A DNA stretch of 62,236 nt, filler included, from Babesia bigemina (lineage: Eukaryota), in assembly GCF_000981445.1 (NCBI RefSeq). It is 9 parts of 9 records of this genome, joined end to end, with 100 filler letters (N's around TTAATTAATTAA, not from the genome) between each part and the next. Parts side by side here need not be neighbours in the genome. Positions count along the whole stretch, not along the records: positions 14,902 to 24,237 come from NW_012237116.1; 8 more parts are not named here. One strand, given 5' to 3'. The notes under the pieces are model-generated. The model saw nothing but the letters and a program-made list of their open reading frames with translations, did not search any database and was not told where the DNA came from. Position numbers and translations under genes: made by a program. Shown piece by piece: positions 14,802-61,282 of the stretch (position 1 is the first letter of the stretch; each line of letters opens with the position of its first letter).

Positions 14802-14901
14802 NNNNNNNNNNNNNNNNNNNNNNNNNNNNNNNNNNNNNNNNNNNNTTAATTAATTAANNNNNNNNNNNNNNNNNNNNNNNNNNNNNNNNNNNNNNNNNNN
14901 N
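14802..14901. other. Artificial contig linker
   Basis: N44-TTAATTAATTAA-N44. Confidence 0.97.
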
Positions 14902-15580
14902 ATCGCCCCTTAACTTACTCCACATCGCTCCCTAATCCACTCTACATCGCCCCTTTATCCACCCTACATCACCCCTTAACCCACCTTACATCGCCCCTTT
15001 ACCCACTCCACATCGCCCCTTTACCCACTCTACATCGCCCCTTATCCACTCTACATCGCCCCTTAACCCACTCTACATCGCCCCTTTACCCACTCTACAT
15101 CGCCCCTTTATCCACCTTACATCGCTCCTTAACCAACTCTACATCGCTCCCTAACCCACTCTACATCGCCCCTTATCCACTCCACATCGCCCCTTTACCC
15201 ACTCTACATCGCTCCCTAACCCACTCCACATCGCTCCCTAACTCACTCTACATCGCCCCTTTATCCACTCTACATCGCCCCTTTACCCACTCTACATCGC
15301 CCCTTATCCACTCTACATCGCTCCCTAACCCACTCTACATCGCCCCTTTACCCACTCTACATCGCCCCTTATCCACTCTACATCGCTCCCTAACCCACTC
15401 TACATCGCCCCTTTAGCCACTCTACATCGCTCCTTTATCCACTCTACATCGCTCCTTTATCCACTCTACATCGCTCCTTATCCACTCTACATCGCTCCCT
15501 AATCCACTCTACATCGCTCCCTAACCCACTCCACATCGCTCCCTAATCCACTCTACATCGCCCCTTTACCCACTCTACAT
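14902..15580 (+). repeat. 21-22-bp C-rich array 5' of antigen ORF
   Basis: Directly visible. Confidence 0.95.
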
Positions 15581-15609
15581 CCTTCAAATCACTTCGCCAT
15601 AATACCGCT

Positions 15610-18600
15610 ATGACCTCTATAAATCATTCTAATAACTTGTGCCTTGTCACCCTTCACTTCCCTCCTTCCACCTCTTGCCACTGCCCTGACCATGTGCCGC
15701 CTAGTGAGCTTGACAAGAAATTTGACAAATTTGATAACCTCAAAAACACCTCAAATAACAACCCTACTAACATCCTTACTAACCTCTGTTCCGGCCTCGA
15801 AAAATTCCTCGGCTTCAATCCATCCTCCAAAGGCTACAACGGCAGTGGTATTGTGTACTCTGACCTGGACAGGCTGTGTGACGGGGTGATGGGATTTTTG
15901 CTTAAATGCCTTGAGGGAAGTAAAGAGTTGTTAACACATTATAATCCTGAAATAACGGAGACTATCGAGCATTTAAATAATTCGATAGGCAAGGGACTTG
16001 GCGTTTCGGGATTTGCCTCCGCCATTGGGAAGGTTAAGAGCGGGCTGCAGGGGTATGAGAGGGTGATGGAGGAGAGGATTAAGGAGGTGAAAACGCCTTT
16101 GGAAACGATGCAAGAGAGATTTAGACAGTTAGAGACGTACTTAAATAATTTTAGTAAAAAGAACCTTAAGACTCAATTGACTCATGTCTCTGAACAGGCT
16201 AGGTTGTACTGGACTGAGGCCAATGGTGTTGCACTGTCAAGTGCAGATTTAGATGACGATCTTAAGAAAAAATTAGAACCTGCGGTGGAGGCAGTAAAAC
16301 AGGCCTCTAAAACGTTTAGAGACGTAACACAAAATTCACACGTTAATACAGAGGCTACTCGTGTTGATACGACATTGATAGAGCATGTAAAACACATAAA
16401 GATGGCGCTTGATTACCAAACCAGGAACGTTCAAACTGCGTTAAATAATGGCTACGAAGCAGTGCAAAAAAGCATAGATGATCTTATTAAGATTAGAGCA
16501 GCACATATGCAAGCTATCACGCGTAGCGTCAGTGACGCTAAAATAACAGTCAGTGATTATGTTGACAACTTCGACAATGAGTTCAAAACGCCCATTAGAG
16601 AAGCATTCGAGGAAATCATAAGAAAGCTTTCTGTAGTAGATTCAAAAAAAAACCAAACACAACTCCGGACGGATGTTGATGATATTAAGAAGAAGCTTAT
16701 GGCATTTGGTGATAAACTCAGCCAACATGTACAGAAGTTAGGAATTGGAATAGAGGCCGCGGAAAATACACGTGCAATGGCTGAACAAAAGGCTGGTGAA
16801 GCGTACGATAAGTTGAAAGAAGAAGACGAGGTTGGTAAAAATGTGAAGTCGAAGCTGGGTGAAGAAATTGACAATATTTTGAAAACTAGGAATAATATAT
16901 CTCTTGTCAATAATAAGCTGATAGAGCAAGTTACGGCGTTAGGAGAGTGGAAGTTAGCTGCGGAGAGAGACGCTGAAAAGGCGGTTAAGTGGTGTAACGC
17001 AATTGTTAAGGCGCTGAAGCCGGATAAAGGTATGACTTTTGCAACGAGGTTTCCAGAGATTACAAAGAAGGTGACTGAACTTAATGAAGCATATACTAAA
17101 ACTAAGCAACGCCTTCAAGAGGTTACTCAATTAACTAAGGAAGCTAATACAAAACTTGGGACTATAAAAGACGATGTCATGTCTCAACTGGGTGCTGATG
17201 TGTCCGGTGCTCTATTAGCGCTGAAGGAGACGTTGAAAGCTTCCAAAAACGTACAGAAGCTTGTGAATCATATCAAAGGTTTGAACAACCGAGATAACAA
17301 ATGTCTCGATATCGGTGGATATACAACAAGTGTTCATCTCAGTATTGACAAAATCACCGGGTCGGAAGTCATCGAACCATGGCTTAAGGAGGTTGAAAAA
17401 GAAATTGAGACACCGCTCATACAAGCTGCGCAGGCCGGTGCTACGGCGCTCGATGGTAAAATTAAAAGTGAAGTTAAAATTACACCATTGGCAACAGTTA
17501 ACGACACTGTGCATAAAGTCGACGATGGGGAAACAAAAACTAAAAAGGGTGATATCGAGCATGCCCTTAACATGGTAAAACTGCAGATGGATGAAATTGC
17601 CAAAAAAGTTGAAAAAAACAACGACGATGATACAATTAGGGGTTATCTGAATCATATTCAAACTGGACTCGGTGGCACAGACAGGTGGACATCGAATAAA
17701 GCCGGCGACGGACAAATTTCTGGGCTACAGAGAATCAATACTGCTATTGGCGCATTGCAATCCACTCTGTCGCAACAGCCAACTGCAATCTATAATGGAG
17801 TTGAGGGAATTAAGATGCAGCTACTTGGCGCCAGAAATGCATTGAAATCTGAGAAAGGGCAAGATGTCTTTTTCACTTTGGGAGATTTGAAGACAAAAAT
17901 TGGTCACGTCAGCAACGGGGACTCCCCTCCTGCAGATAGCCTCGGTGAACTCCGCGTACAACTAGCAGAACTACATGCCTCCGAGTACAACCAATTCGGC
18001 ACAATACTGACAGCTATTACAACAGCGCTTGAGAAAGTTAGTCAATTGGAGAACGTTCCAGGTGAATTAGAAAAGAGTAAAAAAGCGGTTGACAATTCAA
18101 TGGAGCAGTTGCACAAACACCTAAAAACACTGAAACTAAAAATCGAAGCAATAGAATCATCCGTAACAAAAGCTGAAGAATCATTGCAGCAGTACACATC
18201 GAACGTTGAGAGTGCCTTACATAACGCGCATAACAGCTCAATTAAAGCCATCAACCATCTCAATGAGCGCCTTACGACGACTGTCAATTCCAGTTTTGAA
18301 ACCATTAAAAGCGTGATAAGATCCCTCTTCGCGAAGCAGAAGCAGGCCGAGCTGGCCGCGCTGGAGAGCGTTGTCACGGCGCAGTTAAAGGAGATTGAGA
18401 GGGTTATTGAGAATGAAAAAGACAGTGGCGTAAAAGGTTTCATAAAGCGGTTGAACAGCGGTATCGCTGCAAATCTCGATAGATCTGTGCTGACTAACGA
18501 CACCACGTTCGTTCAGTTAGCTATGCGAGTTGCTGGTTATGTCGATCCGTTGTTTGAATTTATAAATGAAGAGTTAACACCGCCAAATTCGAGGTCTGCA

Positions 18601-21159
18601 ACGTCATCTATGTCTCAACCTGTGAACCCTTACGCTTCCAAGGTAGACAAAATCCGGAGTGCGCTGGCCACATTACTAACACGTCTTATCAATGGTAAGA
18701 GCAAAACATACAACTTTGATACTCAATTTGCGCTTGATCTGTCATCAGTTCTGGACGCTGTGAACGAGTTAAGCGCAGTGAAATTTGGCGAGGGCAAGCA
18801 TCCTGAGCTCCTCAACATTCTTAGGAGTGGCATGACAGATCTTGGTAAGGAATTAAGGCATGCCTATATTAATGCATATGATAAAGCTATGATGCCACAG
18901 GTTTTGAAAAATGACAAATTGACAATTGATGCTGAGAAATGTTCAAAAGTATGTCTCACTGTAATCTCCATCCTTGGCCTCTCATTAACCATGTTGAAGG
19001 TTAATTGCTGGAGTCTACGTGGACAGCAGATTAACAGAGATGTTGATCTCGGAAAACTATTAGCTGCAGAGGGATACCATGTGTCTGACCGAGGCGAGCA
19101 GAACGGGGAGCTCCAAGACAAGGACATAATGAAAGGTGACCAAGTTCACAAGAGACTGAGTTGGCCAATTAGCAGCGCCGCTACTGATCATTTGACAACG
19201 TGCAAGCCGAACAACAAAGCAGAGAAATTTGATATATTGGACATTCTCAGATGTCTCTCTGATCATCTTCATCAATATTACAGCGTTCGTCACTACGCCA
19301 CATCATCCGCCACTAGGCAACCGAGCAATATCTACGAAATGCTGTGCTGGCTCATAGGTCTTCCACATAATCCAGTCTATCCACAGTTGTCACTTACCGG
19401 CTTTACTGACCTATTTGAGAAACCGAAGGAAGAAAAGAACGCGGACAATGAAGCCGGGGAAGACATCGTTGCTATTAAGAGTCTCAATGACTTAACCTTG
19501 GAGGCCTACCCGGAAAGCATTACAGTAGACAAACTAACAACAACGCTTGGAGAGGTATGTTCTGGATCAAATTCCGTCCTGACTGCCATCCTAGGAAAGG
19601 GCCACGCGGGTGGCATATATGCTTGCGACTTCTCCAGCAACTCACTAAAATTACGATATGCGACCAATATGGACGCTCTAATTTGTCAGCTTTCGGATAT
19701 ACTGAAACGCGTTTACCGGCAGCTGTACTTCCTTTATCAACAATGTCATTACAATCAAAAACATAGTGGATGGCGCGACTGTTGGTATGGTAGGTACGTT
19801 GGAGGTTCGCACTGGCGATGCAATGACAAGCAATGTGTAACTCAAGACTGTAACCAAAAGGCCCACCAAACATCCAACCAAAACGCTAACCAAATGTGTA
19901 AGCAACACCCGAAGTGCGGGCTTAAGTCACCTCTCCAATCCTTCCTCGAAGATGGACTTCCTGGTTTTATGCCGCATACACTAATATCTGAAAAAGGTAA
20001 ATTAGCATGTTCTCAGAAAAACCACGGTAATCTGCTGTGTCATACGCCAATGGGCTTCAGAGATATAAGTGTAATGGCTTCTCATACGAATAGAGGTACA
20101 CACATCTATATGACTCTCTCCGATTTTTGCGGAGGTAAGTTTTCTCCCCTCACCAGGCTATGTAATTTATTTAATTGTCTACTTCCAAGTGCGCCAAAAT
20201 CACTAGATGATATGTTTGGGTTTTTATACCACTTATTACACAGATGGCATGATGATAATAACAAGGATCGTATGACGCATCGGAAAGAGGCGTTTAACGA
20301 TGCTGTCAAAGAGGCCTGTTTTGATGGAGGCTATGATCTCAGCGAAGTATCGTTATTGTTCACATCGAGAAGGCACACATCTTTCGTTTATAGCGATAAT
20401 AAGGCAAATAATTTATATCATAATGATGGTGATCTGTATAGCATACATAGACCCGAGGATACATGTTACACTGCTAACATGAAATGCGGTGCGTACGTAT
20501 CACCGTTGTCTATGGACATACATTCCACATTGTCGTCGAAACATAAAGCGCTATACCTGTCATGGGTCGTTTACTGTACCGAAACGTTCTACAGTCTTCT
20601 TCGAAAATTATACGATGAGTGCTATAATAATTGCGCATCGGCAAATGCGAAATGCTATAGTCACGGATGCTACAAGGAGTGCCTGATTTCAACTGGAAGC
20701 TTATTCCAAGAGTCGCAGCCTAGTACACACTGGCCGCAATGTAGCTCAATTCTGGATTGTAGAATGACACTGCCCACATTATATAGCTCTGGCATGATAT
20801 TTGGAGATAGGGAAATGCTCGAAGGACAGGTCGGCAGTAAACGATATATAAAAAGAACGTGTAAAGATTTCACTGACCAATTAAAAACTGTCATCGGTGA
20901 CACCTCGGTATTGTCTAAAATAATTCACAAAACAATTCCCGAATTCCTATTCACCATCCGCGCACCGTTCCTGTGGATGACCGTCGCGCTCTGGTCACTG
21001 TCCCTCTTCTACCTCATCTGCGTGATGGTTGGCAGACTGGATGTGCTGCATATCAAGTCACACCTGAGGATACCGTCGTCGCACAAGATAACGCCGCAAT
21101 CATTGTTGGCTGCAGCGCAAGTCGGAAGGCTTGCCAAGATATCGTATCTACAACCGTGA
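15610..21159 (+). CDS. ves-like variant surface antigen family protein (AKISYLQP tail class; CGLKSPLQSFLEDGL subtype)
   Basis: 1849-aa ORF with GIVYSDLDRLCDGVMGFL, Cys-rich C-terminus, TM and LDVLHIKSHLRIPSSHKIT..AKISYLQP. Alternative start at ATG 15889. Confidence 0.85.
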   Translation: MTSINHSNNLCLVTLHFPPSTSCHCPDHVPPSELDKKFDKFDNLKNTSNNNPTNILTNLCSGLEKFLGFNPSSKGYNGSGIVYSDLDRLCDGVMGFLLKCLEGSKELLTHYNPEITETIEHLNNSIGKGLGVSGFASAIGKVKSGLQGYERVMEERIKEVKTPLETMQERFRQLETYLNNFSKKNLKTQLTHVSEQARLYWTEANGVALSSADLDDDLKKKLEPAVEAVKQASKTFRDVTQNSHVNTEATRVDTTLIEHVKHIKMALDYQTRNVQTALNNGYEAVQKSIDDLIKIRAAHMQAITRSVSDAKITVSDYVDNFDNEFKTPIREAFEEIIRKLSVVDSKKNQTQLRTDVDDIKKKLMAFGDKLSQHVQKLGIGIEAAENTRAMAEQKAGEAYDKLKEEDEVGKNVKSKLGEEIDNILKTRNNISLVNNKLIEQVTALGEWKLAAERDAEKAVKWCNAIVKALKPDKGMTFATRFPEITKKVTELNEAYTKTKQRLQEVTQLTKEANTKLGTIKDDVMSQLGADVSGALLALKETLKASKNVQKLVNHIKGLNNRDNKCLDIGGYTTSVHLSIDKITGSEVIEPWLKEVEKEIETPLIQAAQAGATALDGKIKSEVKITPLATVNDTVHKVDDGETKTKKGDIEHALNMVKLQMDEIAKKVEKNNDDDTIRGYLNHIQTGLGGTDRWTSNKAGDGQISGLQRINTAIGALQSTLSQQPTAIYNGVEGIKMQLLGARNALKSEKGQDVFFTLGDLKTKIGHVSNGDSPPADSLGELRVQLAELHASEYNQFGTILTAITTALEKVSQLENVPGELEKSKKAVDNSMEQLHKHLKTLKLKIEAIESSVTKAEESLQQYTSNVESALHNAHNSSIKAINHLNERLTTTVNSSFETIKSVIRSLFAKQKQAELAALESVVTAQLKEIERVIENEKDSGVKGFIKRLNSGIAANLDRSVLTNDTTFVQLAMRVAGYVDPLFEFINEELTPPNSRSATSSMSQPVNPYASKVDKIRSALATLLTRLINGKSKTYNFDTQFALDLSSVLDAVNELSAVKFGEGKHPELLNILRSGMTDLGKELRHAYINAYDKAMMPQVLKNDKLTIDAEKCSKVCLTVISILGLSLTMLKVNCWSLRGQQINRDVDLGKLLAAEGYHVSDRGEQNGELQDKDIMKGDQVHKRLSWPISSAATDHLTTCKPNNKAEKFDILDILRCLSDHLHQYYSVRHYATSSATRQPSNIYEMLCWLIGLPHNPVYPQLSLTGFTDLFEKPKEEKNADNEAGEDIVAIKSLNDLTLEAYPESITVDKLTTTLGEVCSGSNSVLTAILGKGHAGGIYACDFSSNSLKLRYATNMDALICQLSDILKRVYRQLYFLYQQCHYNQKHSGWRDCWYGRYVGGSHWRCNDKQCVTQDCNQKAHQTSNQNANQMCKQHPKCGLKSPLQSFLEDGLPGFMPHTLISEKGKLACSQKNHGNLLCHTPMGFRDISVMASHTNRGTHIYMTLSDFCGGKFSPLTRLCNLFNCLLPSAPKSLDDMFGFLYHLLHRWHDDNNKDRMTHRKEAFNDAVKEACFDGGYDLSEVSLLFTSRRHTSFVYSDNKANNLYHNDGDLYSIHRPEDTCYTANMKCGAYVSPLSMDIHSTLSSKHKALYLSWVVYCTETFYSLLRKLYDECYNNCASANAKCYSHGCYKECLISTGSLFQESQPSTHWPQCSSILDCRMTLPTLYSSGMIFGDREMLEGQVGSKRYIKRTCKDFTDQLKTVIGDTSVLSKIIHKTIPEFLFTIRAPFLWMTVALWSLSLFYLICVMVGRLDVLHIKSHLRIPSSHKITPQSLLAAAQVGRLAKISYLQP

Positions 21160-21304: not shown

Positions 21305-22183
21305 AGCTAAGTGCTAAGCAAGCACCCAGGCTAAGTGCTAAGCTGGCAACCAGGCAAAGTGCTAAGCTAGCACCCAGGCTAAGTGCTAAGGTATCAACCA
21401 GGCAAAGTGCTAAGCTAGCAACCAGGCAACGTGCTGAGCAAGCACCCAGGTTAAATGCTAAGCTAGCAACCAGGCAAAGTGTTGACCTAGCACACAGGCA
21501 AAGTGCTGAGCTAGCACACAAGCTAAGTGCTAAGCTAGCAACCAGGCAAAGTGCTAAGCTAGTACCCAGGCAAAGTGCTAACCTAGCACACAGGCAAAGT
21601 GCTAACCTAGCAACCAGGCAACGTGGTAAGCTGGCACGCAGGCAAAGTGTTATGCTAGCAACCAGGCAACTGGTAACCTAGCACCCAGGCAAAGTGCTAA
21701 GCTAGGACGCAAGCAAAGTGATAAGCTGGCAACCAGGCAAAGTGTTGACCTAGCAACCAGGCAAAGTGCTGAACTGGCACCCAGGCAAAGTGGTAACCTA
21801 GCACACAGGCAAGGTGCTAAGCTAGCACACAGGCAAAGTGCTAACCTAGCAACCAAGCAAAGTGCTAAGCTAGCAACCAGGCAACGTGATGACCTAGCAC
21901 ACAGGCAAAGTGCTAACCTAGCAACCAGGCAAAGTGTCAACCTAGCATCCAGGCAAAGTGCTAAGCTGGTAACCAGGCAAAGTGGTAAGCTAGCAACCAG
22001 GCAAAGTGCTAAGCTGGCACCCAGGCTAAGTGCTAAGAAAGCACCCAGGCAAAGTGGTAAGCTAGCAACCAGGCAAAGTGGTAAGCTAGCAACCAGGCAA
22101 CGTGCTGAGCAAGCACCCAGGCAAAGTGGTAAGATAGCACCCAACCAAAGTGCTAACCTAGCACCCAGGCAAAGTGGTAAGCT
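21305..22183 (+). repeat. 24-bp tandem repeat CAGGCAAAGTGCTAA(G/C)CTAGCA(A/C)C
   Basis: Directly visible. Confidence 0.95.
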
Positions 22184-22679
22184 GGCGGATGAACCGTAAT
22201 ATGGTGGGTGTTGTAGCACGTTTATTGCCTGGTGCGTTGAGTTGTGCGTTGACTGTGAGAGGCGTCCGCGTTACCCATTGAGTGAGTGTCACGTGAGGCT
22301 GGGTGATTGGTCGCTAACGTAGCGGTCGTGAAGGCCGCGGCGGGTGACCTAAGTCGTGTGTTGCGAGTCACTCGCAGGGTGGCGTAATCCGCGTTGGCCC
22401 GGTTAAGTAGCATTTATAGGCGGCGATGTAGCGATTGTTAATATCACATTTAGGCACGTAGCCGACACGCTCCGCCAGCATGGCGTCTATACGCGGCTCG
22501 TAGCACGGTGCTGCTGCACTGTGGGAGTTGAGCGCACGGGGTTCGCTGTAATTCTTATGGCGTTGCGAATAGTGAATAATTTAGAGTGACAGTTGGTGCC
22601 GATCACATGCGTCGCGTCAGGTGAAGCCGTGGTATCCTGGGCAGCGTGGGTGTCGGTGGCCCGGGCTGGGGGGATACAG
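22184..22679 (+). repeat. Conserved ~495-bp dispersed element (copy 1), possible promoter or 5' region of the Cys-rich gene
   Basis: Highly similar copies at 24474-24968, 29456-29727 (reverse strand, partial) and 59585-60078. Confidence 0.8.
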
Positions 22680-22692
22680 CGGTGACGGTGCG

Positions 22693-23095
22693 TGTTGATG
22701 AGGTGACTGGGAGCGGCAGTGGTAGTGTTGCAGTTGGTGAGTGCTTGCTAGGTGATTGATACGTTTGCAGGTTGAGGGGACTGGGAGCGGCAGTGGTAGT
22801 GTTGCAGTTGGTGAGTGCGTTGCTAGGTGATTGATATGTCTGCAGATTGAGGGGACTGGGAGCGGCAGTGGTACGTGTTGCAGTTGGTGAGTGCGTTGCT
22901 AGGTGATTGATTATTTTTCGCAGTCTGAGGGGACTGGGAGGGGCAGTGGTAGTGTTGCAGTCGGTGAGTTCTGCTTAAGCGATTGATATGTTCGCAGGTT
23001 GACGGGACTGGGAGCGGCAGTGGTACGTGTTGCAGTTGGTGACTGCTGCTTGAGTGATTGATATGTTTGCAGGTTGAGTGAACTGGGAGGGGAAG
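22693..23095 (+). repeat. ~75-bp tandem repeat of a 40-41-nt exon-like part plus a 34-37-nt GT..CAG intron-like part (5 units)
   Basis: GTGA(G/C)T..GCAG segments at 22737-22770, 22811-22845, 22887-22923, 22964-22997 and 23039-23072. Confidence 0.8.
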
Positions 23096-23554
23096 ATGAC
23101 GCAGTGTATATGTGACAATAGATGTAACAAGCCTGATTGTAGGTGTTGCTACCTGTGTTGCATAAAATGTCGTCGTTGGTGTCCTGAGTGTCGCGAATTC
23201 TACAGTTCGCGCAGAAGCGGAGGGGAATGCCACACTAAGGATTGTCTTGGTTGTGACACTCGTACATGTCAATGTATATGTTGTAGAACTAAACAGATTA
23301 ACGCTCTTCGTGCCCAGCATGCCGCCAGTCAACAGCTTCGCTCTGATTCCTCCGGTTCCTCCTCCTCCCGTGCTCTGCCTCAGCCCGCCGGTCAACTGCG
23401 TTCCACTGGCGACTCTAATCCCTCTACTCCCTCTTCCTCAGCCGTCCTCCCTTACATCGTCGCTGCCGTCGCCCTCATCATCGTCGTCGTCTGCGTCATG
23501 GTCTACTTCCGCGTCCGGCCGTTCCACAGGGTGCGGTATCTACTGCGCAGCTGA
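23096..23554 (+). CDS. Small 18-Cys protein with Ser/Pro linker and C-terminal TM anchor (tail A: YFRVRPFHRVRYLLRS)
   Basis: 152 aa from the ATG in gaagATG context; Cys scaffold shared with three paralogues. Confidence 0.75.
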   Translation: MTQCICDNRCNKPDCRCCYLCCIKCRRWCPECREFYSSRRSGGECHTKDCLGCDTRTCQCICCRTKQINALRAQHAASQQLRSDSSGSSSSRALPQPAGQLRSTGDSNPSTPSSSAVLPYIVAAVALIIVVVCVMVYFRVRPFHRVRYLLRS

Positions 23555-23651
23555 TCGCAATAACCTAACTGGCAACTGACTTCTAATGTTGTGGACAGTA
23601 ATGATTGCGTTGATGATAAATCACATGAGCAGTGAGGTGACTACATCCCCG

Positions 23652-23790
23652 TCCCTACTCCGCCATCGCCGCCGTCGTTTTCATCATCGTCGCCATCTGC
23701 GTCATGGTCTACTTCCGCTTTCCGGTGGGTCGCAACATCCGCGATTTCCTCGTCCGCAAGATACCCTTCTGCATCGCGTTCTACAGCTAA
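23652..23790 (+). pseudogene. Orphan TM/tail cassette, A/B hybrid (PYSAIAAVVFIIVAICVMVYFRFPVGRNIRDFLVRKIPFCIAFYS*)
   Basis: Manual translation; no start ATG ahead of the TM segment and an in-frame TGA just upstream. Confidence 0.6.
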
Positions 23791-23924
23791 TTTCGACGAT
23801 TGGTCAGCGCAAACATCGTAATCCAAATCCCACTGATCACCTAACTGGCAACTGACATCTAATGTTATAGACAAAGTATGATTGCATTGACGATCCATCA
23901 CATGAGCAGCGAGGTGACTTAGCA

Positions 23925-24237: not shown

Positions 24238-24337
24238 NNNNNNNNNNNNNNNNNNNNNNNNNNNNNNNNNNNNNNNNNNNNTTAATTAATTAANNNNNNN
24301 NNNNNNNNNNNNNNNNNNNNNNNNNNNNNNNNNNNNN
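24238..24337. other. Artificial contig linker
   Basis: N44-TTAATTAATTAA-N44. Confidence 0.97.
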
Positions 24338-24968: not shown

Positions 24969-24981
24969 GGGTTAGGGTGCG

Positions 24982-25208
24982 TGTTGCAGTTGGTGAGTGC
25001 GTTGCTTAAGTGATTGATATGTTTGCAGGCTGAGGGGACCGGGAGGGGCAGTGGTAGTGTTGCAGTTGGTGAGTGCTTGCTTAAGTGACTGATATGTTCG
25101 CAGGTTGAGGGGACTGGGAGCGGCAGTGGTACGTGTTGCAGTTGGTGAGTGCGTTGCTAGGTGATTGATATGTTCGCAGGCTGAGAGGACTGGGAGGGGA
25201 GCGGGAAG
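24982..25208 (+). repeat. ~75-bp intron/exon-like repeats (3 intron-like parts)
   Basis: GTGAGT..GCAG at 24993-25028, 25069-25103 and 25145-25179. Confidence 0.8.
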
Positions 25209-25664
25209 ATGAGTTGGGGGACGTGTCAGTGTGACCCTAAATGTACACAGGGTGAATGTAGATGCTGCTATTTGTGTTGTAAAAAATGTATACGATGTTT
25301 TTCTCATTGTCGAAAATTTTATCAAGGCCGCCTACGTGGAGAGGATTGCCATCGTGAAAATTGTGTTAAGTGTAATTCCGGTTGTCAATGTAACTGTTGT
25401 CTACGGAAACCTTATGCCTCCTCCAGTTCTTCCTCCTCTTCATCCAGTGCCGTCCAAGGCCCCGGTTCCTCTGGTTCCTCCTTCTCCAGTGCAGAGCCTC
25501 ACGCCGGTCAACTGCGTCACACGGGCGTCCCTGACTCACCATCCTCTCCTAACGTCCTACCCATCATCATCGTCCCCGTCGCCCTCATCATCGTCGTCAT
25601 CTGCGTCATGGTCTACTTCCGCATCCGTCCGTTCCACAGGGTGCGGTATCTACTGCGCAGCTGA
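25209..25664 (+). CDS. Small 18-Cys TM-anchored protein (tail A)
   Basis: 151 aa; conserved Cys scaffold, Ser-rich linker, TM and YFRIRPFHRVRYLLRS. Confidence 0.75.
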   Translation: MSWGTCQCDPKCTQGECRCCYLCCKKCIRCFSHCRKFYQGRLRGEDCHRENCVKCNSGCQCNCCLRKPYASSSSSSSSSSAVQGPGSSGSSFSSAEPHAGQLRHTGVPDSPSSPNVLPIIIVPVALIIVVICVMVYFRIRPFHRVRYLLRS

Positions 25665-25763: not shown

Positions 25764-25910
25764 CCCTACTCCGCCATCGCCGCCGTCATCGTTGCCCTCA
25801 TCGTCGCCATCATCCTGCTCGACCTGTGCATCTTCCGCTTCCCGGTGGGCCGCAACATCCGCGATTTCCTCGTCCGCAAGATACCGTTCTGCATCGCGTT
25901 CTACAGCTAA
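25764..25910 (+). pseudogene. Orphan TM/tail cassette B (..IILLDLCIFRFPVGRNIRDFLVRKIPFCIAFYS*)
   Basis: Same peptide as the in-frame C-terminus of 60492-61037, but no start codon. Confidence 0.6.
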
Positions 25911-26519: not shown

Positions 26520-26619
26520 NNNNNNNNNNNNNNNNNNNNNNNNNNNNNNNNNNNNNNNNNNNNTTAATTAATTAANNNNNNNNNNNNNNNNNNNNNNNNN
26601 NNNNNNNNNNNNNNNNNNN
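26520..26619. other. Artificial contig linker
   Basis: N44-TTAATTAATTAA-N44. Confidence 0.97.
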
Positions 26620-28457: not shown

Positions 28458-28605
28458 TCAGCTGTAAAACGCGATGCAGAAGGGTATCTTGCGGATGAGG
28501 AAATCGCGGATGTTGCGGCCCACCGGGAAGCGGAAGATGCACAGGTCGAGCAGGATGATGGCGACGATGATGAGGGCGACGGGGACGGCGGCGATGGTTT
28601 TGGGG
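28458..28605 (-). pseudogene. Orphan TM/tail cassette B (PKTIAAVPVALIIVAIILLDLCIFRFPVGRNIRDFLIRKIPFCIAFYS*)
   Basis: Manual translation of the minus strand. Confidence 0.6.
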
Positions 28606-28691
28606 GAAGTGTTATGGTCAAGTAATTGGTCATCAACGCAATCATTACTGTCTACAACATTAGATGTGAGTTGCCAATTTGGTTATTGTGA

Positions 28692-29183
28692 TTAGCTGCG
28701 CAGTAGATACCGCACCTTGTGGAACGGCCGGATGCGGAAGTAGATCATGACGCAGAGGACGACGATGATGAGGGCGACCGGGACGATGATGTAAGGGAGG
28801 ACGGCGGGGGATGATGATGAGGAAGAGGGGTTGGTGTGACTTTGTTGAATCACAGCTTGCTGCTGAAGACTGCGGGCAGAGGAGGAACCTGAGGAAGTGA
28901 CGCCACCGGAGGAGGTGCGGGAATGATGCTGAGTAGTAGATAGATGGGAACGAGTAAGGACGACAGGGCGTTGTCTTTCACAACACTCACATAGACATGT
29001 GCTTTTCTCACAATCATTACATCTCTGAGGTTTGCAGTCCCATGATCCACTTCTGCGCGATTGAGACAACGGAAGACATGGAAGACATTTTGATATCTTA
29101 CATTTTGCACAACACCAGTGACAGCAATTACACACCACACGCTCTTTACATTTTTTGTTACAACTACACGTTAATATGCTCAT
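28692..29183 (-). CDS. Small 18-Cys TM-anchored protein (tail A)
   Basis: 163 aa; gaagATG start context, Cys scaffold, TM and YFRIRPFHKVRYLLRS. Confidence 0.75.
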   Translation of the reverse strand: MSILTCSCNKKCKERVVCNCCHWCCAKCKISKCLPCLPLSQSRRSGSWDCKPQRCNDCEKSTCLCECCERQRPVVLTRSHLSTTQHHSRTSSGGVTSSGSSSARSLQQQAVIQQSHTNPSSSSSSPAVLPYIIVPVALIIVVLCVMIYFRIRPFHKVRYLLRS

Positions 29184-29442
29184 CTTCCTCTCTCCCTCCC
29201 ACTCCCCTCAGCCTGCAGACATATCAATCACCTGGCAACGCACTCACCAACTGCAACTCGTACCACTGCCGCTCCCACTTCCCTCAACCTGCAATCATAT
29301 CAATCACCTAAGCAGCACTCACCAACTGCAACACGTACCACTGCCGCTCCCAGTCCCCTCAACCTGCAAACATATCAATCACTCAAGCAGCACTCACCAA
29401 CTGCAACACGTACCACTGCCGCTTCCAGTCCCCTCATCAACA
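29184..29442 (-). repeat. ~75-bp intron/exon-like repeats (3 intron-like parts)
   Basis: Reverse complement of the 22693-23095 unit. Confidence 0.8.
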
Positions 29443-29455
29443 CGCACCCTCACCC

Positions 29456-29727
29456 CTGTATCCCCCAGCCCTGGCCACCGACACCCACGCTGCCCGGGAT
29501 ACCACAGCTGCCCTGACGCGACGCATGTGATCAGCACCAACTGTCACTCTAAATTATTCACTATTCGCAACGCCATTAAAATTGCAGCGACCCGTGCGCT
29601 CAACTCCCACAGTGCAGCAGAACCCTGCTACGAGCCGCGGTATCGGCGCCATACTGGCGGAGCGTGTCGGCTACGTGCCTAAATATCATATTAACAATCG
29701 CTACATTGCCGCCTATAAATGCTACTC
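29456..29727 (-). repeat. Conserved ~495-bp element (partial copy 3, cut by gap)
   Basis: Reverse complement of the 3' half of 22184-22679. Confidence 0.8.
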
Positions 29728-29827
29728 NNNNNNNNNNNNNNNNNNNNNNNNNNNNNNNNNNNNNNNNNNNNTTAATTAATTAANNNNNNNNNNNNNNNNN
29801 NNNNNNNNNNNNNNNNNNNNNNNNNNN
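29728..29827. other. Artificial contig linker
   Basis: N44-TTAATTAATTAA-N44. Confidence 0.97.
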
Positions 29828-43982: not shown

Positions 43983-43985
43983 TTG

Positions 43986-52897: not shown

Positions 52898-53130
52898 AAA
52901 TTACCTTGTCATTATACCGCTATGACCTTCTTAAACCATTTTAATAACTTGTGCCTTGTCACCCTTCACTTCCCTCTTCCACCTTTTGCCACTGCCATGT
53001 CCCATCATGTTCACCCTAACTCCAAATCTCTCTAATTACTTCGTCTTATTAACGCTATGACCTCCATTAAACATTATAATAACTTGCTGATACTGACCAT
53101 TCTCTTACTGACGATGCTACTAGAAGAGCC

Positions 53131-56100
53131 TTGAATGACATCCAGTCCAAGTTGCAGCAGGTTAAAAAGCTTGGAGAGAGTCTTAAAGGATTGACTGAAG
53201 AAAACAGTTGTAAAAATCTCTTAGAGAATTTATGTTCCGGCCTCGAAACTTTCCTCGGCTTCAACTCTGAGACTAAAGGCTACGACGGCTCTGGCATTGT
53301 GTACTCCGACCTGGATAGGCTGTGTGACGGGGTGATGGGATTTTTGAGTGGTGTTCTCAGTAACATCAAAGGCCATTTAGGGCAGCATAAAAATGAAATT
53401 AATGATGCAATTGAAGCTTTGAAGACCAATAAACACGGCGGCAAAAAAGGTTTTAATGTCGCGATTGGAAAGGTGGTCGCAGGGGTGCGGGGGTATAATG
53501 ATGCTGTCATGAAGTCGAATAAAAAGGTGAGTGATGTATTAACAAAAATGCAGAAAGATGCAGATAAATATTCAGCAGAAAGATTAGAAAAATTGTTGCC
53601 TCCACGAAATGCGGATGACCCCGTGAAAATTGTTAATCTCATCGTAGCCGCCGACCAGACAGTGGAAGAATGTCTAAAAGAAGCCGACAAATTCAACAAC
53701 GCTTTAGATATGAAAAACAATGCGGAGGAATTAAGAAACGCAATTAGAGACTTAAATCCTAATTTGAGTACTAAAATAGAGAACGTGCGTGAAAATATTA
53801 AGCATGAACGTGAAGGACTGAACAAGTTGGCAGGACATGAAAAGAATGATTTACAGAGTATGGAAGCAAAAATTAAAACAAAGCTTCACGACGTCAAATG
53901 TAAGGTAAATGAGCATATTAAAAAAAAGGTTAAGCAACTGGTGGAGAGGCTGAAGGAAAAGGTTCGTGAAATTAGAGCAAAACTTGTTGACATTGAAGAC
54001 AAGTTGGCGCAGTACGTCAAGGAACTTGAGAGCTGGATGAAAGAGGCCAAGAAAGTCATCGATACCTTATTGACAACGGTAGACAAAATTAAAAAGGAAG
54101 TCGATGGTGATGCAGCGACCAAAAATCTGCCACAACTTCAGGCCGCGATTAAAAAAATCGGAGAAGAACTTGGACATCGGGTTGGCGATTTGGACACTTG
54201 GAAGGGTAAGGCGGAGGGTGTGCTGAGCGAAGCTATTACGAAGACGACGGAAGTGCATGATGATTTGGAGCCGAAGGAAAACAAAAGGGATGCACGTGAT
54301 AAAACGCAAATTGGTAAAGCCTTAGATGGAATTACAAGTGCTAATACACAGATTGGCGTAATAAAAAAAAGTCTCCAAGATGAAGTTGCTAATTTGGATA
54401 AGTGGAAGACGGAGGCAGGAGATATTATTGGCAAGGCCGAGCGTAAATGTAAAAAAATACTTGCAGACGTTGATACGAATGGCTCAACAATTAGGGAAAA
54501 AGCAAAGCTCTTACAAGATTTGGCTGGTAAACTTTTAACGGCTTACAGCTCAGCATATACTAAAATTAAGAGGTTGCCAGGTGAACTGAAATCGATGCTA
54601 TCTAAACTCGAAGAGGTATATCAGCATAAATTAAAAGATGTACATAACAAGGTGATCAGTGCTATTGGCGAAGAAACAGCCCCGGGGAAAGCGACTGGCA
54701 TTTTGGACGTTCTTAACAGGTTGGATGAGCATGTTAAAAATGATCTGGTTAGTCTTAGGGGTAGGATTAAAAATGAAGTAATTGATGCATACGTCAAGAT
54801 GATGAAGGAAATACAGATTACCAGTAATAACGGCGCCGGTACTATTACGCTGAATGTGCCCAGAAGAGATGGGGAGGGGAAGCCTCAGGGCCAGACGCCG
54901 GTAACTCTTAGCGTTGCTGTTGCTGGAAGAATTGCTGACGGTCTAAATGGTAATAATTCACCCATTGCGAAGTGGCTTAATCAGGCTGCAAGTGGACTGC
55001 AGAATAGTATAATTCCAGACTTCAAGTACAAATATCTCTGGACAGACAAAAATCCACTTGACAATGTTGATGCACTCGTCAAGATTCTTCGAACTGGACT
55101 AAAAAATCATGAGAATAAATCAATCATCGACGCTATTGGCGACAGTTTGAACGAAGAACTTCAACAGTTGATCAAGGACAAAGAAAGCATACATTTGAAA
55201 ACAGCAACTGAATCTCCCGACAATGCTCTCATGCCAGAATATAAAGCATCGACAACACGCACTCCTACTGAAGGAGAGCTTAGAGCGGCCATAAAAGATA
55301 TTAAAAGCCACGTTCAATACATGAAGCGTGATAGTCCAACCGATGTCGACGTTGAAAGCTTTCAAGGTTACAACTCTGCGCATACATCTCTCAACATCCA
55401 AAGCGAGAAAGGTGCTAGAGGCGATATTACACAAAAGATTGCCGAAGTGGACAACGCTTTGTCAGACTTCAAGGCGGGTGATCATGTGGACCAACACGGC
55501 CATGGAGCCGTGAGTGAAACCAAAAAGAAAATTACTTCAGCATTCAGAGTGATTGAAAATGAGCTCGAATGGCTGACTAAACTTGTTAGTGATGAGAGCG
55601 GTGGAGATGCATATTCAAACAATGACAATAAAGGTGTCAAGGTGTATCTCGGGCAGCTGCAAAAGGGACTCGAAAGTGAACAGATTCCGTATGCGTTCGC
55701 TAAAGGGCTAAAAATCATTCATGACTCGCTTCACCGTTTGCAAGGCGAAACTCTGCCTCCGCAAATATCTGCCATCCAAGTGGCCGTTGAATCAATTACA
55801 TCAGTTATTACTAAGCTGAGATCAACATTAAGTGGTCAGGTCACAACGAAGTTGGAAGCGTTAAGAACGCATGGCCTTAATGATGGCGACGCACCGTGGA
55901 CAGCTGACGGTCAACCAACCAAAGGTCTCATGACAATCAAGGCGGAAATCGAAAAAATTAAATCCACCAACGTACCCGGTGTTGAAACCAAACTAAAAGA
56001 CCTCTGCACAGCAATTCGATCCATTTGCAGAGACGCCAAGGAATACTTGGAAGGTATGAAAAATGGCAGAATCGATGTTGAACTGAAAAAAATTAGAGAT

Positions 56101-60090: not shown

Positions 60091-60491
60091 TGTTGATGAG
60101 GGGACTGGGAGCGGCAGTGGTACGTGTTGCAGTTGGTGAGTGCTGCTTGAGTGATTGATATGTTTGCAGGTTGAGGGGAGTGGGCGCGGCAGTGGTAGTG
60201 TTGCAGTTGGTGAGTGCTGCTTGAGTGATTGATATGTTTGCAGGTTGAGGGCAGTGGGAGCGGCAGTGGTAGTGTGGCAGTTGGTGAGTGCGTTGCTAGG
60301 TGAGTGATATGTTTGCAGGTTGAGGGGACTGGGAGCGGCAGTGGTACGTGTTGCAGTTGGTGAGTGCTGCTTGCGTGATTGATATGTTCGCAGGTTGAGG
60401 GGAGTGGGAGCGGCAGTGGTAGTGTTGCAGTTGGTGAGTGCGTTGCTGGGTGATTGATATGTTCGCAGGTTGAGGGGAGTGGGAGGGGAAG
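60091..60491 (+). repeat. ~75-bp intron/exon-like repeats (5 intron-like parts)
   Basis: GTGAGTGC..GATATGTT(T/C)GCAG units. Confidence 0.8.
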
Positions 60492-61037
60492 ATGACGATG
60501 GGTTGGAGGAAGACGTGCAGATGTGATACTGGTTGTATACAGTTTCAACCATGTAAATGCTGCCCATGGTGTTGTAAAGAATGTATTAAAGGCATTTATA
60601 CCAGTTGCGATGTATGTGCAGCAAATTCCTATCTGAAGCGGCTTAGGAAGCAATGCAATCCTAACGTATGTAAAGCCGGCAAAACGGATTGCACTAATAT
60701 TTACAAATGTGAATGTAACTGTTGTCGACAGAAATGTAAAGAGAGGGATCCCGTCTGCACGCCCCTCGCTCCTCCCCCTCCACCGCCTCCCGCTGATTCC
60801 TCCGATGTTCAGGATCACGCCGCCGGTCAAGAGCTTCTCCCCCGTACCGAAGCTCTCGAACAAGAGAACAATTCTCCACCTTTCCGCCCTAACCCCCAAA
60901 CCATCGCCGCCGTCATCGTTGCCATCATCGTCGCCATCATCCTGCTCGACCTGTGCATCTTCCGCTTTCCGGTGGGCCGCAACATCCGCGATTTCCTCGT
61001 ACGCAAGATACCCTTCTGCATCGCGTTTTACAGCTGA
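60492..61037 (+). CDS. Small Cys-rich (18+2 Cys) TM-anchored protein (tail B: LDLCIFRFPVGRNIRDFLVRKIPFCIAFYS)
   Basis: 181 aa; same start context and Cys scaffold as the paralogues, Pro-rich linker and TM. Confidence 0.75.
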   Translation: MTMGWRKTCRCDTGCIQFQPCKCCPWCCKECIKGIYTSCDVCAANSYLKRLRKQCNPNVCKAGKTDCTNIYKCECNCCRQKCKERDPVCTPLAPPPPPPPADSSDVQDHAAGQELLPRTEALEQENNSPPFRPNPQTIAAVIVAIIVAIILLDLCIFRFPVGRNIRDFLVRKIPFCIAFYS

Positions 61038-61171: not shown

Positions 61172-61282
61172 CCCGCCCCTTACATCATCGCTCCCATACT
61201 CATCATCATCATCGTCATCTGCGTCATGAGCTACTTCCGCATCCGGCCGTTCCACAGGGTGCGGTATCTACTGCGCAGCTAA
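61172..61282 (+). pseudogene. Orphan TM/tail cassette A (PAPYIIAPILIIIIVICVMSYFRIRPFHRVRYLLRS*)
   Basis: Manual translation; matches the C-termini of the other three small genes. Confidence 0.6.

What the first reader, a model, noticed from the sequence alone, without database searches (positions are those of the whole stretch)
23096..23554. Family of small 18-cysteine, membrane-anchored, hypervariable proteins embedded between ves-like genes
Seen: four ORFs (23096-23554, 25209-25664, 28692-29183(-), 60492-61037) share the same order of 18 Cys (CxCxxxC..CxCCxxCCxxC..C..C...C....C..C...CxCxCC) with nearly all intervening residues variable. Each has a Ser/Pro-rich linker, one C-terminal TM helix, a short basic tail and no signal peptide. 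Known: B. bovis ves clusters are interspersed with smORF genes, but those are signal-peptide-bearing and not built on such a Cys scaffold; this Cys density resembles metallothioneins and the Cys/Lys-rich domain of VESA1. Inference: a second variant family (metal-binding or disulfide mini-domain on a tail anchor) co-packaged with the large antigens. I do not recognise it as a named family.
Basis: partly seen in the sequence, partly recalled or inferred. Interest (0 to 1): 0.85.

Follow-up and report, generated by a model that had tools for sequence, protein, structure and literature searches.

The report
Unnamed cysteine-scaffold membrane protein family, Babesia bigemina
Next to the large variant-antigen (ves1b-like) genes of the cattle parasite Babesia bigemina lies an unnamed, partly mis-annotated family of small membrane proteins: 18 cysteines are fixed, almost everything between them varies, and the proteins are likely a second set of variable, exposed surface proteins.

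Summary
The four ORFs exist as described (152, 151, 163 and 181 aa). They share 18 aligned Cys, a Ser/Pro-rich linker, one strong C-terminal TM helix and a short basic tail. None has an N-terminal hydrophobic segment.

The window is Babesia bigemina (BOND unplaced contigs joined by N linkers), not B. bovis. The large neighbours are ves1b-like.

A profile search found 57 relatives, all B. bigemina "hypothetical proteins". An exhaustive HMMER scan of 1.84 billion representatives found 40, again all B. bigemina and none longer than 280 aa. There was no Pfam, PDB or fold match, and none of the papers I searched names the family.

Each gene is its own unit:
- a conserved upstream region;
- 3-5 tandem 75-bp units that each look like a mini-exon plus a 35-nt intron;
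- the ATG, with an in-frame TGA just upstream;
- a hypervariable core;
- a conserved TM and tail in one of two versions (A or B);
- a spare, out-of-frame cassette of the other tail type downstream.

The flanks are 88-96% identical between copies and the core 46-68%. Non-Cys codons have dN about equal to dS. Tail types are swapped between core lineages.

Best reading, inferred: a recombining variant family of exposed single-pass proteins. I found no data that bear on expression, location or Cys chemistry.

The parts
15547..21159 (+). Large ves1b-like gene immediately upstream of small gene 1. It has its own C-terminal TM and its own stop codon.
   Evidence: ORF found. The family is named through P0045 = BBBOND_0303890, a relative of the large genes here, which Jackson 2014 calls VESA1B.
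21309..22183 (+). 24-bp tandem repeat array (36.5 copies) that separates the ves1b stop from the small-gene unit.
   Evidence: The same array lies before locus 4 (59110-59584) and at the start of the locus-2 contig (24338-24470).
22184..22698 (+). Unique upstream region of about 500 bp, conserved between paralogs. Predicted promoter and start of the leader. It holds a short upstream ATG (MRRVR...) that several deposited models use as their start.
   Evidence: Mean pairwise identity between loci is 0.88-0.96. Sequence. The upstream ORF is closed by stops in the window loci.
22699..23089 (+). 75-bp tandem repeat, 5.2 copies. Each unit is a 40-41-nt exon-like piece plus a 34-37-nt piece with GTGAGT/GTGACT ... 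YGCAG ends, so it is a predicted multi-intron 5' leader.
   Evidence: (15 matches, 0 expected by chance, all upstream of the four genes).
23096..23554 (+). Small gene 1 (152 aa). The 18-Cys domain is aa 1-63 (23096-23284), the Ser/Pro-rich linker is aa 64-116, the TM is aa 117-135 (23444-23500), and tail A follows, then the stop.
   Evidence: An in-frame TGA lies 7-9 codons before the ATG, whether the leader is read spliced or unspliced.
23555..23646 (+). Conserved 3' element that follows every tail cassette (core CTAACTGGCAACTGAC.TCTAATGTT).
   Evidence: 8 matches, two per locus, 0 expected by chance.
23647..23787 (+). Spare 'TM-B plus tail B' cassette downstream of gene 1. It is out of frame with the bridging sequence, and its TM is an A/B hybrid.
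   Evidence: tblastn (69% identity to locus-4 aa 133-181). Alignment. The frames are my own reading of the sequence.
24976..25199 (+). 75-bp leader repeat of locus 2 (2.9 copies).
25209..25664 (+). Small gene 2 (151 aa, tail A).
25776..25907 (+). Spare TM-B cassette of locus 2, 97.7% identical at protein level to the working tail B of locus 4.
28692..29183 (-). Small gene 3 (163 aa, tail A).
29196..29436 (-). 75-bp leader repeat of locus 3 (3.2 copies).
28461..28607 (-). Spare TM-B cassette of locus 3.
53083..58968 (+). Large ves1b-like gene immediately upstream of small gene 4.
   Evidence: 92% identity to BBBOND_0313900 over the C-terminal 512 aa.
60097..60485 (+). 75-bp leader repeat of locus 4 (5.2 copies).
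60492..61037 (+). Small gene 4 (181 aa, tail B; equals P0130). The deposited model P0132 replaces its first 43 residues, which hold 11 Cys, with translated leader.
61178..61279 (+). Spare TM-A cassette downstream of gene 4. The order of tail types is the reverse of loci 1-3.

Best explanation
These four ORFs are members of a Babesia bigemina multigene family of small single-pass membrane proteins that is unnamed in the sources I searched, and that is likely a recombining variant family whose cysteine-braced N-terminal domain would be exposed outside the parasite. Shown directly: each protein has a basic N-terminal domain of 63-83 aa held by 18 fixed Cys, with 2 more in most members. After it come a Ser/Pro-rich stalk, a very hydrophobic TM helix, and one of two nearly invariant basic tails (A or B). 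Each gene is a separate unit placed just 3' of a ves1b-like gene. The unit runs: 24-bp repeats, a conserved unique region of about 500 bp, 3-5 tandem 75-bp units, the ATG, a hypervariable core, a conserved TM and tail, a conserved 3' element, and a spare cassette of the other tail type. Flanks are near-identical between paralogs, while the core is saturated with substitutions and only the Cys are kept. Tail types are exchanged between core lineages. Inferred: the 75-bp units are real introns and mini-exons of a 5' leader. The conserved flanks act as recombination boundaries that shuffle or homogenise modules, and selection diversifies the loops. The protein would insert N-out/C-in, as VESA1 does (one TM, no signal peptide), so that a disulfide-braced variable mini-domain stands on a stalk at the surface of the infected red cell or the parasite. 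In that role it would resemble rifin/stevor of Plasmodium, SmORF of B. bovis or the Cys-rich VSPs of Giardia.
For: It is a real gene family under selection. 17-18 Cys are invariant across 16 full-length members and no other domain residue is invariant. Both Cys codons are used at 5 of 17 conserved columns. All 4 of 4 window copies have intact ORFs. An in-frame TGA lies 7-9 codons upstream of the ATG in 4 of 4 loci, so no hidden signal-peptide exon can join in frame. Family size and range: 57 proteins at E <= 0.01, all B. bigemina. The exhaustive HMMER scan of 1.84 billion representatives gave 40 of 40 hits from B. bigemina, the longest 280 aa, so no fused long form exists in that library. Modular evolution: identity between loci is 0.88-0.96 in the 5' flank and leader, 0.46-0.68 in the Cys domain and linker, and 0.78-0.95 in the TM, tail and 3' element. 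In the Cys domain dS is 0.77-1.98, against 0.08-0.16 in the TM and tail among A-type copies. Non-Cys codons have dN/dS 0.46-1.33 and 9-31% aa identity. In the domain tree a well-supported clade (95/96) mixes tails A and B, so at least 2 tail changes are forced. Hybrid tails occur (P0147, P0165). Spare cassettes of the other tail type lie downstream in 4 of 4 loci. Linkage to ves1b: 2 of the 5 ves1b-like genes with a visible 3' flank are followed by a small gene. Locus tags are adjacent in BOND (0111390/0111400, 0305020/0305030, 0212310 flanked by 0212300 and 0212320). Topology hints: no N-terminal hydrophobic segment, and a tail of net charge +4 to +7. The sub-threshold Pfam matches are all to the stalk and TM of type I mucin-like proteins such as Endomucin, Glycophorin A, TMEM154, RIFIN and Stevor. 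VESA1 itself is listed with 1 TM and no signal peptide, yet is exported (PMC9477259, Table 1 passage).
Against: I could obtain no evidence of expression. No RNA run holds the gene. 0 of 14 family locus tags I looked up appear in the blood-stage/kinete RNA-seq table of PMC9806345. That table drops genes below 1 read per million, and only 1 of 4 neighbouring ves1b genes is in it. 0 of 6 tags appear in the three searchable supplements of the proteomics paper. By the usual definition (no signal peptide, TM within 16-25 residues of the C-terminus) the proteins are tail-anchored, which would put the Cys domain in the cytosol rather than outside. Only 16 of 57 database proteins carry the whole domain. 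The rest may be mis-modelled or may be truly broken. dN and dS are both saturated, so dN/dS near 1 cannot separate diversifying selection from relaxed selection. The structure models are of low confidence (pLDDT 64 and 57), so no fold supports a disulfide-knot reading. Splicing of the leader is predicted from sequence only. The one run that holds the repeat shows it unspliced.
Confidence: 0.5

Rival explanations
1. A tail-anchored protein with a cytosolic metal-binding (metallothionein-like or zinc-cluster) or heavily palmitoylated Cys domain. The TM would be inserted after translation, with the N-terminus staying in the cytosol of the parasite, or on the cytosolic face of a membrane. The 18-20 thiols would bind Zn/Cu or carry lipid.
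For: There is no signal peptide, and the TM ends 16-25 residues from the C-terminus, which is the formal tail-anchor criterion. About 29% of the domain is Cys, with CxC, CC and CxxC spacings. The Cys split as 11 in the N-half and 7 in the C-half, plus 2 further Cys just after the C-half in most members. That is numerically like the 11+9 Cys of mammalian metallothionein domains, a comparison I make from recall and did not test.
Against: No metallothionein or zinc-finger Pfam model matches, even at E <= 1, in 16 of 16 members. Aromatic residues are conserved inside the domain (CCxWCC at 70% or more), which is unlike metallothioneins (recall). A housekeeping metal binder has no obvious need for about 60 hypervariable paralogs beside variant-antigen genes. 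The Ser/Pro-rich stalk and strongly basic tail look like a type I ectodomain-stalk-TM-tail layout.
Confidence: 0.2
2. Mostly dead by-products of recombination around ves1b genes. On this view the ORFs are decaying fragments kept similar by gene conversion, and the intact copies in this window are a lucky sample.
For: 33 of 57 deposited proteins start with translated leader repeat, and 41 of 57 lack the full Cys count. Out-of-frame spare cassettes lie at all four loci. The family is absent from the filtered RNA-seq table.
Against: The 18 Cys are kept through dS of about 1 and 9-31% identity at other positions, with synonymous Cys codon changes. Drift does not do this. All 4 of 4 window ORFs are intact. 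The one 'half-domain' deposited model that could be checked against DNA (P0132) hides an intact ORF.
Confidence: 0.12
3. Not separate genes, but alternative 3' exons or an alternative C-terminus of the upstream ves1b transcript.
For: The ORFs are on the same strand as the ves1b-like gene and directly downstream of it in both cases where the neighbour is visible. The leader is full of splice-like signals.
Against: The ves1b-like ORF ends in its own TM, tail and stop about 1.9 kb upstream. The intervening 24-bp array and the conserved 500-bp region are specific to the small-gene unit. An in-frame TGA precedes the ATG in 4 of 4 loci. 0 of 120 ves1b-like proteins carry tail A or B motifs, and no protein over 280 aa matches the profile.
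Confidence: 0.05

Closest known systems
SmORF family of Babesia bovis and ves2 of B. bigemina / B. divergens
   Same: All are small, multi-copy, variable genes interspersed with ves1 genes (Jackson 2014, PMC4066756, sections 21-22 read).
   Different: SmORF and VESA2 have signal peptides and no membrane anchor, and ves2 is homologous to the 5' 500 bp of ves1b. This family has no signal peptide and has a C-terminal TM. Its Cys-domain HMM has no match in 120 ves1b-like proteins.
RIFIN / STEVOR of Plasmodium falciparum
   Same: Small, hypervariable membrane proteins encoded in large numbers beside the major variant antigen genes, with a conserved C-terminal TM and a short basic tail. The only similarity is a weak, sub-threshold Pfam match to their TM region (RIFIN E 0.0043 in 1 of 16 members, Stevor E 0.1 in 1 of 16).
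   Different: The matches are below the Pfam cut-offs and cover only the TM region. From recall, RIFIN and STEVOR have a signal peptide and an export motif. They have no 18-Cys scaffold.
Giardia variant-specific surface proteins (VSPs)
   Same: A working analogy from recall: a Cys-rich variable ectodomain on an almost invariant TM and a very short conserved basic tail, in many paralogs.
   Different: There is no sequence match: no Pfam family hit the Cys domain. VSPs are much larger, rich in CXXC and have signal peptides (recall). Here the domain is 63-83 aa with a fixed 18-Cys order.
VESA1 (ves1b-like) proteins of B. bigemina
   Same: The topology signals are the same: no signal peptide and one TM near the C-terminus. 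VESA1 is listed with 1 TM and SignalP null in PMC9477259 Table 1. The two sit at the same loci.
   Different: Size is about 1,800-2,000 aa against 150-190 aa. The tails are unrelated: 0 of 120 large proteins carry tail A or B. The Cys domain is not detectably similar to any part of them.
Metallothioneins
   Same: Cys density is about 29% in the domain, with CxC/CC/CxxC spacings.
   Different: No Pfam match. The domain has conserved aromatic residues, is membrane-anchored, and is hypervariable and multi-copy.

Membership tests
SmORF (B. bovis) | N-terminal signal peptide and no membrane anchor | tested here: not met
   There is no hydrophobic N-terminus (maximum 19-residue hydropathy 1.12 or less), and a strong C-terminal TM (2.98-3.38) is present in 16 of 16 members. 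Jackson 2014 found no smORF homologs in B. bigemina with HMMs.
BbigVes2 | Homology to the 5' end of ves1b, a signal peptide, and no TM | tested here: not met
   The Cys-domain HMM against 120 ves1b-like proteins gave a best E of 1.4. A TM is present.
VESA1 / ves1 C-terminal domain | The conserved VESA C-terminal domain with TM that all ves1 genes share | tested here: not met
   0 of 120 large proteins carry tail A or B motifs. The profile, which includes the TM and tails, matched no protein over 280 aa among 1.84 billion representatives.
VESA1 Cys/Lys-rich domain (CKRD) of B. bovis | Sequence similarity to the CKRD | tested here: inconclusive
   No Pfam model matched the Cys domain at E <= 1. 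Whether Pfam holds a model that covers the CKRD is my recollection, not a call. No B. bovis VESA1 sequence was compared directly. Jackson 2014 states that no B. bigemina sequence contains a CKRD.
Metallothionein | A match to a metallothionein family model | tested here: not met
   No such Pfam family appeared among the matches of 16 members at E <= 1.
Metallothionein | Binding of Zn/Cu/Cd through the thiolates | not testable with these tools
   This needs metal analysis of purified protein.
Tail-anchored membrane proteins (topological class) | No signal peptide and a single TM close to the C-terminus (within about 30-40 residues) | tested here: met
   The TM ends 16-25 residues from the C-terminus in 16 of 16 members. 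No in-frame upstream exon is possible in 4 of 4 loci.
Tail-anchored membrane proteins (topological class) | Post-translational insertion with the N-terminal domain left in the cytosol | not testable with these tools
   This needs protease protection or surface labelling of a tagged protein.
RIFIN / STEVOR | A Pfam match above the gathering score | tested here: not met
   RIFIN matched at E 0.0043 in 1 of 16 members. Stevor matched at E 0.1 with 12.6 bits against a cut-off of 25.4. Both cover the TM region only.

The most novel reading that the evidence does not exclude
The small Cys-scaffold proteins are the cis-encoded variable partner, a 'light chain', of VESA1b on the infected red-cell surface. 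On this reading the tandem 75-bp leader units and the conserved TM/tail/3' cassettes are the boundaries of a cassette-exchange system that swaps hypervariable cores and tails between about 60 loci, as the 70-bp repeats and conserved 3' ends do for trypanosome VSG genes. A ves1b gene and its downstream small gene would then switch together.
Probability: 0.1. Interest if true: 0.85.

Novelty: new variant of a known kind. Interest (0 to 1): 0.62.

Why it matters
B. bigemina is a major cause of bovine babesiosis. The papers I searched list ves1a, ves1b, ves2 and mfs as its variant gene repertoire. This family would add a further module of about 60 genes, specific to the species as far as the databases show, placed directly beside ves1b. 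Its protein domain has no known relatives. The reference annotation hides it: most deposited models begin in the translated 5' repeat or skip half of the domain. Expression and proteomic studies that rely on those models would therefore miss or mis-assign it. If the proteins are exposed, they are candidate antigens and candidate partners of VESA1b. The gene architecture is also unusual in its own right. It combines tandem exon-intron-like leader units, a hypervariable core between homogenised flanks, and spare tail cassettes, and it offers a tractable case of modular recombination in a piroplasm.

Tried and rejected
- Whole-genome search: no genome is held for this window (error).
- Public runs: no RNA holder is listed for window 22600-23900. 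The single weak holder, X1 (share 0.05), covers only the 75-bp leader repeat (22688-23083), in unspliced form, and nothing of the ORF, TM or cassettes. It shows the leader running into other start codons. This is no evidence on expression.
- Published tables: 0 of 6 family tags in three searchable supplements of PMC4066756, with file 1 not searchable. 0 of 14 family tags and 1 of 4 neighbouring large genes in supplement 1 of PMC9806345, which drops genes under 1 read per million. 0 of 6 tags in the supplements of PMC5660447. No paper text holds any of 6 family tags.
- Structure: AF2 on the whole protein (16 sequences) gave mean pLDDT 64.4, with the Cys domain at 52-73. AF2 on the domain alone (41 sequences) gave 56.8. 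Foldseek against the PDB gave 0 matches at E <= 10. The models are too weak to interpret.
- Other searches: the PDB sequence profile gave nothing below E 1.5. The ESM Atlas gave no usable feature hit in two tries, and its own model has pLDDT 0.50 with TM scores under 0.5. Rfam gave 0 matches in the window. Earlier findings of this scan: nothing in three look-ups.
- Two-TM isoform: three deposited models (P0131, P0141, P0148) join TM-A, a bridge and TM-B through a predicted intron. In all four window loci the downstream cassette is one base out of frame with that bridge (my reading of the sequences). I rejected it as a general feature.
- Upstream start: I considered the upstream ATGs (MRRVR..., MRGLGAAVV...) used by deposited models and rejected them for the window loci, because the leader carries in-frame stops.
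- Complex prediction was not used. I do not claim binding.
Full report
**What the window is.** The window is not one continuous stretch of genome. It holds 16 runs of 44 N in pairs around TTAATTAATTAA, so it is a chain of nine contigs. Neighbourhood across a linker therefore means nothing. The last piece (43372-62236) is 18,865 bp. That is exactly the contig length the protein database gives for the window's own large proteins (P0010, P0026), for the ORF at 60492 (P0130) and for the deposited B. bigemina protein P0132. P0132 is identical to that ORF from residue 44 to the end. The six large ORFs (about 1,800-2,080 codons) have 331 relatives, and the 120 listed come only from B. bigemina and B. 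ovata, with up to 92% identity to BBBOND_0313900. One listed relative, BBBOND_0303890 (P0045, 52% identity, E 3e-183), is named a dominant VESA1B protein in Jackson et al. 2014 (PMC4066756, section 23 passage). So the organism is B. bigemina (BOND contigs), not B. bovis, and the large neighbours are ves1b-like.

**The observation.** Aligned with two full-length relatives, 18 Cys are invariant in 6 of 6 sequences. With 16 full-length members, 17 Cys are invariant and one is at least 90% conserved. Among 81 well-filled domain columns no residue other than Cys is invariant. The pattern at 70% or more is C-x-C-x3-C-x5-C-x-CC-x-W-CC-x2-C-x4-C-x2-C ... C-x4-C-x3-C-x5-C-x-C-x-CC. Queries from outside the window (P0002, P0003) find just these four loci. 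Between the Cys, identity among the four copies is 9-31%. dN/dS of non-Cys codons is 0.46-1.33, with both rates near saturation. Five of 17 conserved Cys columns use both TGT and TGC. That pattern points to selection on the Cys residues of a translated protein. The rest of the description also holds: no hydrophobic N-terminus, a very hydrophobic helix near the C-terminus, a tail of 16-25 residues with net charge +4 to +7, and a basic Cys domain with net charge +1 to +8.

**Gene anatomy.**
- Upstream of each ATG lie 2.9-5.2 tandem copies of a 75-bp unit. The core motif occurs 15 times in the window, all upstream of the four genes, against 0 expected by chance.
- Each unit splits into a 40-41-nt piece and a 34-37-nt piece that begins GTGAGT/GTGACT and ends YGCAG. 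This is the shape of a short piroplasm intron; the typical intron size is my recollection.
- The ATG sits in the last exon-like piece. In 4 of 4 loci an in-frame TGA lies 7-9 codons before it, whether or not the pieces are removed. The ORF therefore starts at that ATG, and no upstream exon can supply a signal peptide.
- Splicing itself is not shown. The only public run that holds the repeat shows it unspliced and may be DNA.
- Further upstream lie a conserved unique region of about 500 bp and a 24-bp repeat array that begins about 150 bp after the stop of the ves1b-like gene.
- Downstream of the stop comes a conserved element of about 85 nt. Its core occurs 8 times in the window, twice per locus. 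After it comes a second, spare 'TM plus tail' cassette. Loci 1-3 end in tail A (...FRIRPFHRVRYLLRS) and are followed by a tail-B cassette. Locus 4 ends in tail B (...FRFPVGRNIRDFLVRKIPFCIAFYS) and is followed by a tail-A cassette.
- In the four window loci the spare cassette is out of frame with the sequence before it (my reading of the sequences).
- After the cassette come the same 12-bp, 20-bp and 22-bp arrays that follow and precede ves1b-like genes elsewhere in the window.
- Of the five ves1b-like genes whose 3' flank is visible, two (15547-21159 and 53083-58968) are followed by a small-gene unit. Three run straight into the 12-bp array.

**Mosaic conservation.**
- Across the four loci, mean pairwise DNA identity is 0.88-0.96 in the 5' flank and leader. 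It falls to 0.46-0.68 through the Cys domain and linker, and rises again to 0.78-0.95 through the TM, tail, 3' element and spare cassette.
- dS is 0.77-1.98 in the Cys domain but 0.08-0.16 in the TM and tail among the A-type copies. There dN is about as large as dS. The 3' end is therefore kept alike by recent homogenisation, not only by protein constraint.
- A tree of the Cys domain has long branches and is weak overall. It does contain one well-supported clade (95/96) that mixes tail A (P0002, P0003) with tail B (P0135, P0145). At least two changes of tail type are forced.
- Hybrid tails exist (P0147, P0165). Cores and tails have therefore been recombined.

**Family size and range.**
- A single-sequence search found 9 relatives. 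A profile search found 57 at E <= 0.01 among proteins of 83-317 aa. All are B. bigemina 'hypothetical' or 'uncharacterized' proteins, except the window's own P0130.
- The exhaustive HMMER scan of 1.84 billion representatives found 40 at E <= 0.001. 38 of these are the same B. bigemina proteins, and the two new ones (P0178, P0179) are also B. bigemina.
- None exceeds 280 aa, so neither the Cys domain nor either tail is found fused to a large protein in that library.
- No B. ovata, B. bovis, B. divergens, B. caballi or Theileria protein appears. This shows absence from predicted proteomes, not from genomes, since such small ORFs may go unannotated.
- By tail type the 57 split into 21 A, 33 B and 3 with both.
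- Only 16 of 57 carry 20 or more Cys. 33 of 57 begin with translated leader repeat (LRGLGAAVV, EGSGSGSG), and several read the Cys domain out of frame.
- Where a deposited model can be checked against DNA, it is wrong. P0132 replaces the first 43 residues of the intact locus-4 ORF, including 11 Cys, with translated leader.
- I found no deposited model for loci 1-3 in either search. How many of the other short models are artefacts and how many are truly truncated genes cannot be told without the BOND chromosomes.

**What it is not.**
- Pfam: no family reaches its cut-off in any of 16 members. All weak matches fall on the Ser/Pro stalk and TM of type I mucin-like proteins (Endomucin, Glycophorin A, TMEM154, Syndecan, RIFIN, Stevor), and none falls on the Cys domain.
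- ves1b-like proteins: the Cys-domain HMM matches 0 of 120 (best E 1.4), and 0 of 120 carry tail A or B.
- ves2 and SmORF are defined by a signal peptide and the lack of an anchor, and ves2 also by homology to the ves1b 5' end (PMC4066756 section 22). Those features are not met.
- The PDB profile search, the ESM Atlas, AF2 and Foldseek gave nothing usable.

**Literature.**
- I read sections and passages of Jackson 2014, passages of the B. caballi genome paper, section 28 and passages of the B. ovata genome paper, and passages of the 2022 review of red-cell modification.
- I also ran five further full-text searches (listings only for the other papers).
- The families named for B. bigemina are ves1a, ves1b, ves1ba, ves2, mfs and 6-Cys.
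[quoted passage not shown] This may include the family but does not describe it. A figure legend also mentions other multi-copy genes near ves loci.
- Supplements I could not see may list these genes: file 1 of Jackson 2014, and cluster tables keyed by other identifiers.

**How it most likely works.**
- Shown: a protein-level constraint on 18 Cys, free variation elsewhere, homogenised flanks, swapped tails, spare cassettes, and linkage to ves1b.
- Inferred, architecture: it lets recombination in the conserved flanks move or homogenise modules, while the loops between the Cys diversify.
- Inferred, location: I think the domain is most likely a disulfide-braced variable knob on a Ser/Pro stalk, displayed outside the parasite. 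It would use the same route as VESA1, which has no signal peptide and one TM.
- In its favour: the even Cys counts (18 or 20), the basic tail, the stalk-like linker, the hypervariability and the genomic company.
- Against it: by the formal criteria these are tail-anchored proteins, which would leave the domain in the cytosol as a metal-binding or lipidated module. I have no data on expression, location or chemistry.
- My weights are 0.5 for the exposed variant family, 0.2 for the cytosolic tail-anchor reading, 0.12 for mostly dead debris and 0.05 for ves1b exons.

**Verdict.** This is a real, unnamed and partly mis-annotated multigene family, restricted to B. bigemina as far as predicted proteomes show. 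It has a new Cys-scaffold domain and an unusual modular gene architecture. It is a new variant of a known kind, namely the small variable membrane proteins encoded beside a parasite's major variant antigen genes. Its function is still inferred.

Noticed in passing
window 7352-7451, 14802-14901, 24238-24337, 26520-26619, 29728-29827, 32955-33054, 40546-40645, 43272-43371: Pairs of 44-N runs around TTAATTAATTAA show that the window is a chain of nine separate contigs. Gene order across these joints is artificial.
   Followed up: yes
window 29832-30721 and 30914-32930: One contig starts with about 110 copies of CCTAAAAC, which looks like a telomere repeat. About 95 copies of a 22-bp unit (ATCTTATTCAGCTACTCATCTT) follow, a unit not seen elsewhere in the window. 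This is probably a chromosome end.
   Followed up: no
window 631-1759, 13592-14800, 14902-15581, 26620-28089, 33158-34195, 40646-43270, 44170-44858, 51853-52897, 61766-62236: Every ves1b-like gene is preceded by 0.7-2.6 kb of a 22-bp repeat (ATCCACTCTACATCGCCCCTTA). It is followed by a 12-bp array (GTGCTGACCAAC) and then a 20-bp array (ATGGTCACGGCAGCGATGAC). This is a strict modular intergenic architecture whose role is unknown.
   Followed up: partly
window 7146, 21159, 39835, 51155, 58968 (3' ends of the large ORFs): The ves1b-like proteins also end in two alternative conserved tails...AKISYLQP (46 of 120 relatives) and ...NRVFYLQP (24 of 120). A third form...ANVKYFSP (21 of 120), is also present. 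This parallels the A/B tails of the small family.
   Followed up: partly
window 22608 (locus 1), with the homologous sites in loci 2-4: A conserved upstream ATG (MRRVR...) lies in the unique region, and another (MRGLGAAVV...) lies at the first 75-bp unit. Both open short upstream ORFs that are closed by stops in the window loci. Deposited models use them as starts. They may act as regulatory uORFs.
   Followed up: partly
P0178 and P0180 (B. bigemina proteins, not in the window); compare window 23586-23787: In some BOND loci the bridge plus the spare TM-B cassette is annotated as a stand-alone ORF of 65-69 aa (M..ALM.N.MSSEVT...TM-B...tail B). In three models it is spliced to TM-A to give a two-TM protein. 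In the four window loci it is out of frame.
   Followed up: partly
run X1 laid on window 22688-23083: A public run labelled as an arthropod metagenome RNA-Seq holds the 75-bp leader (12 of 31 laid contigs at least 99% alike). The leader is unspliced there and runs into start codons of ORFs that are not in this window. A B. bigemina-like parasite is probably in that sample.
   Followed up: partly
window 22823-23320 (-), 24972-25307 (-), 29176-29682 (+), 59845-61073 (-): Long ORFs lie on the strand opposite to the 75-bp leader and the small genes (up to 356 aa, with repetitive PLPLPVPSTCKHINH...). They are by-products of the repeats, not genes, and could mislead gene callers.
   Followed up: no
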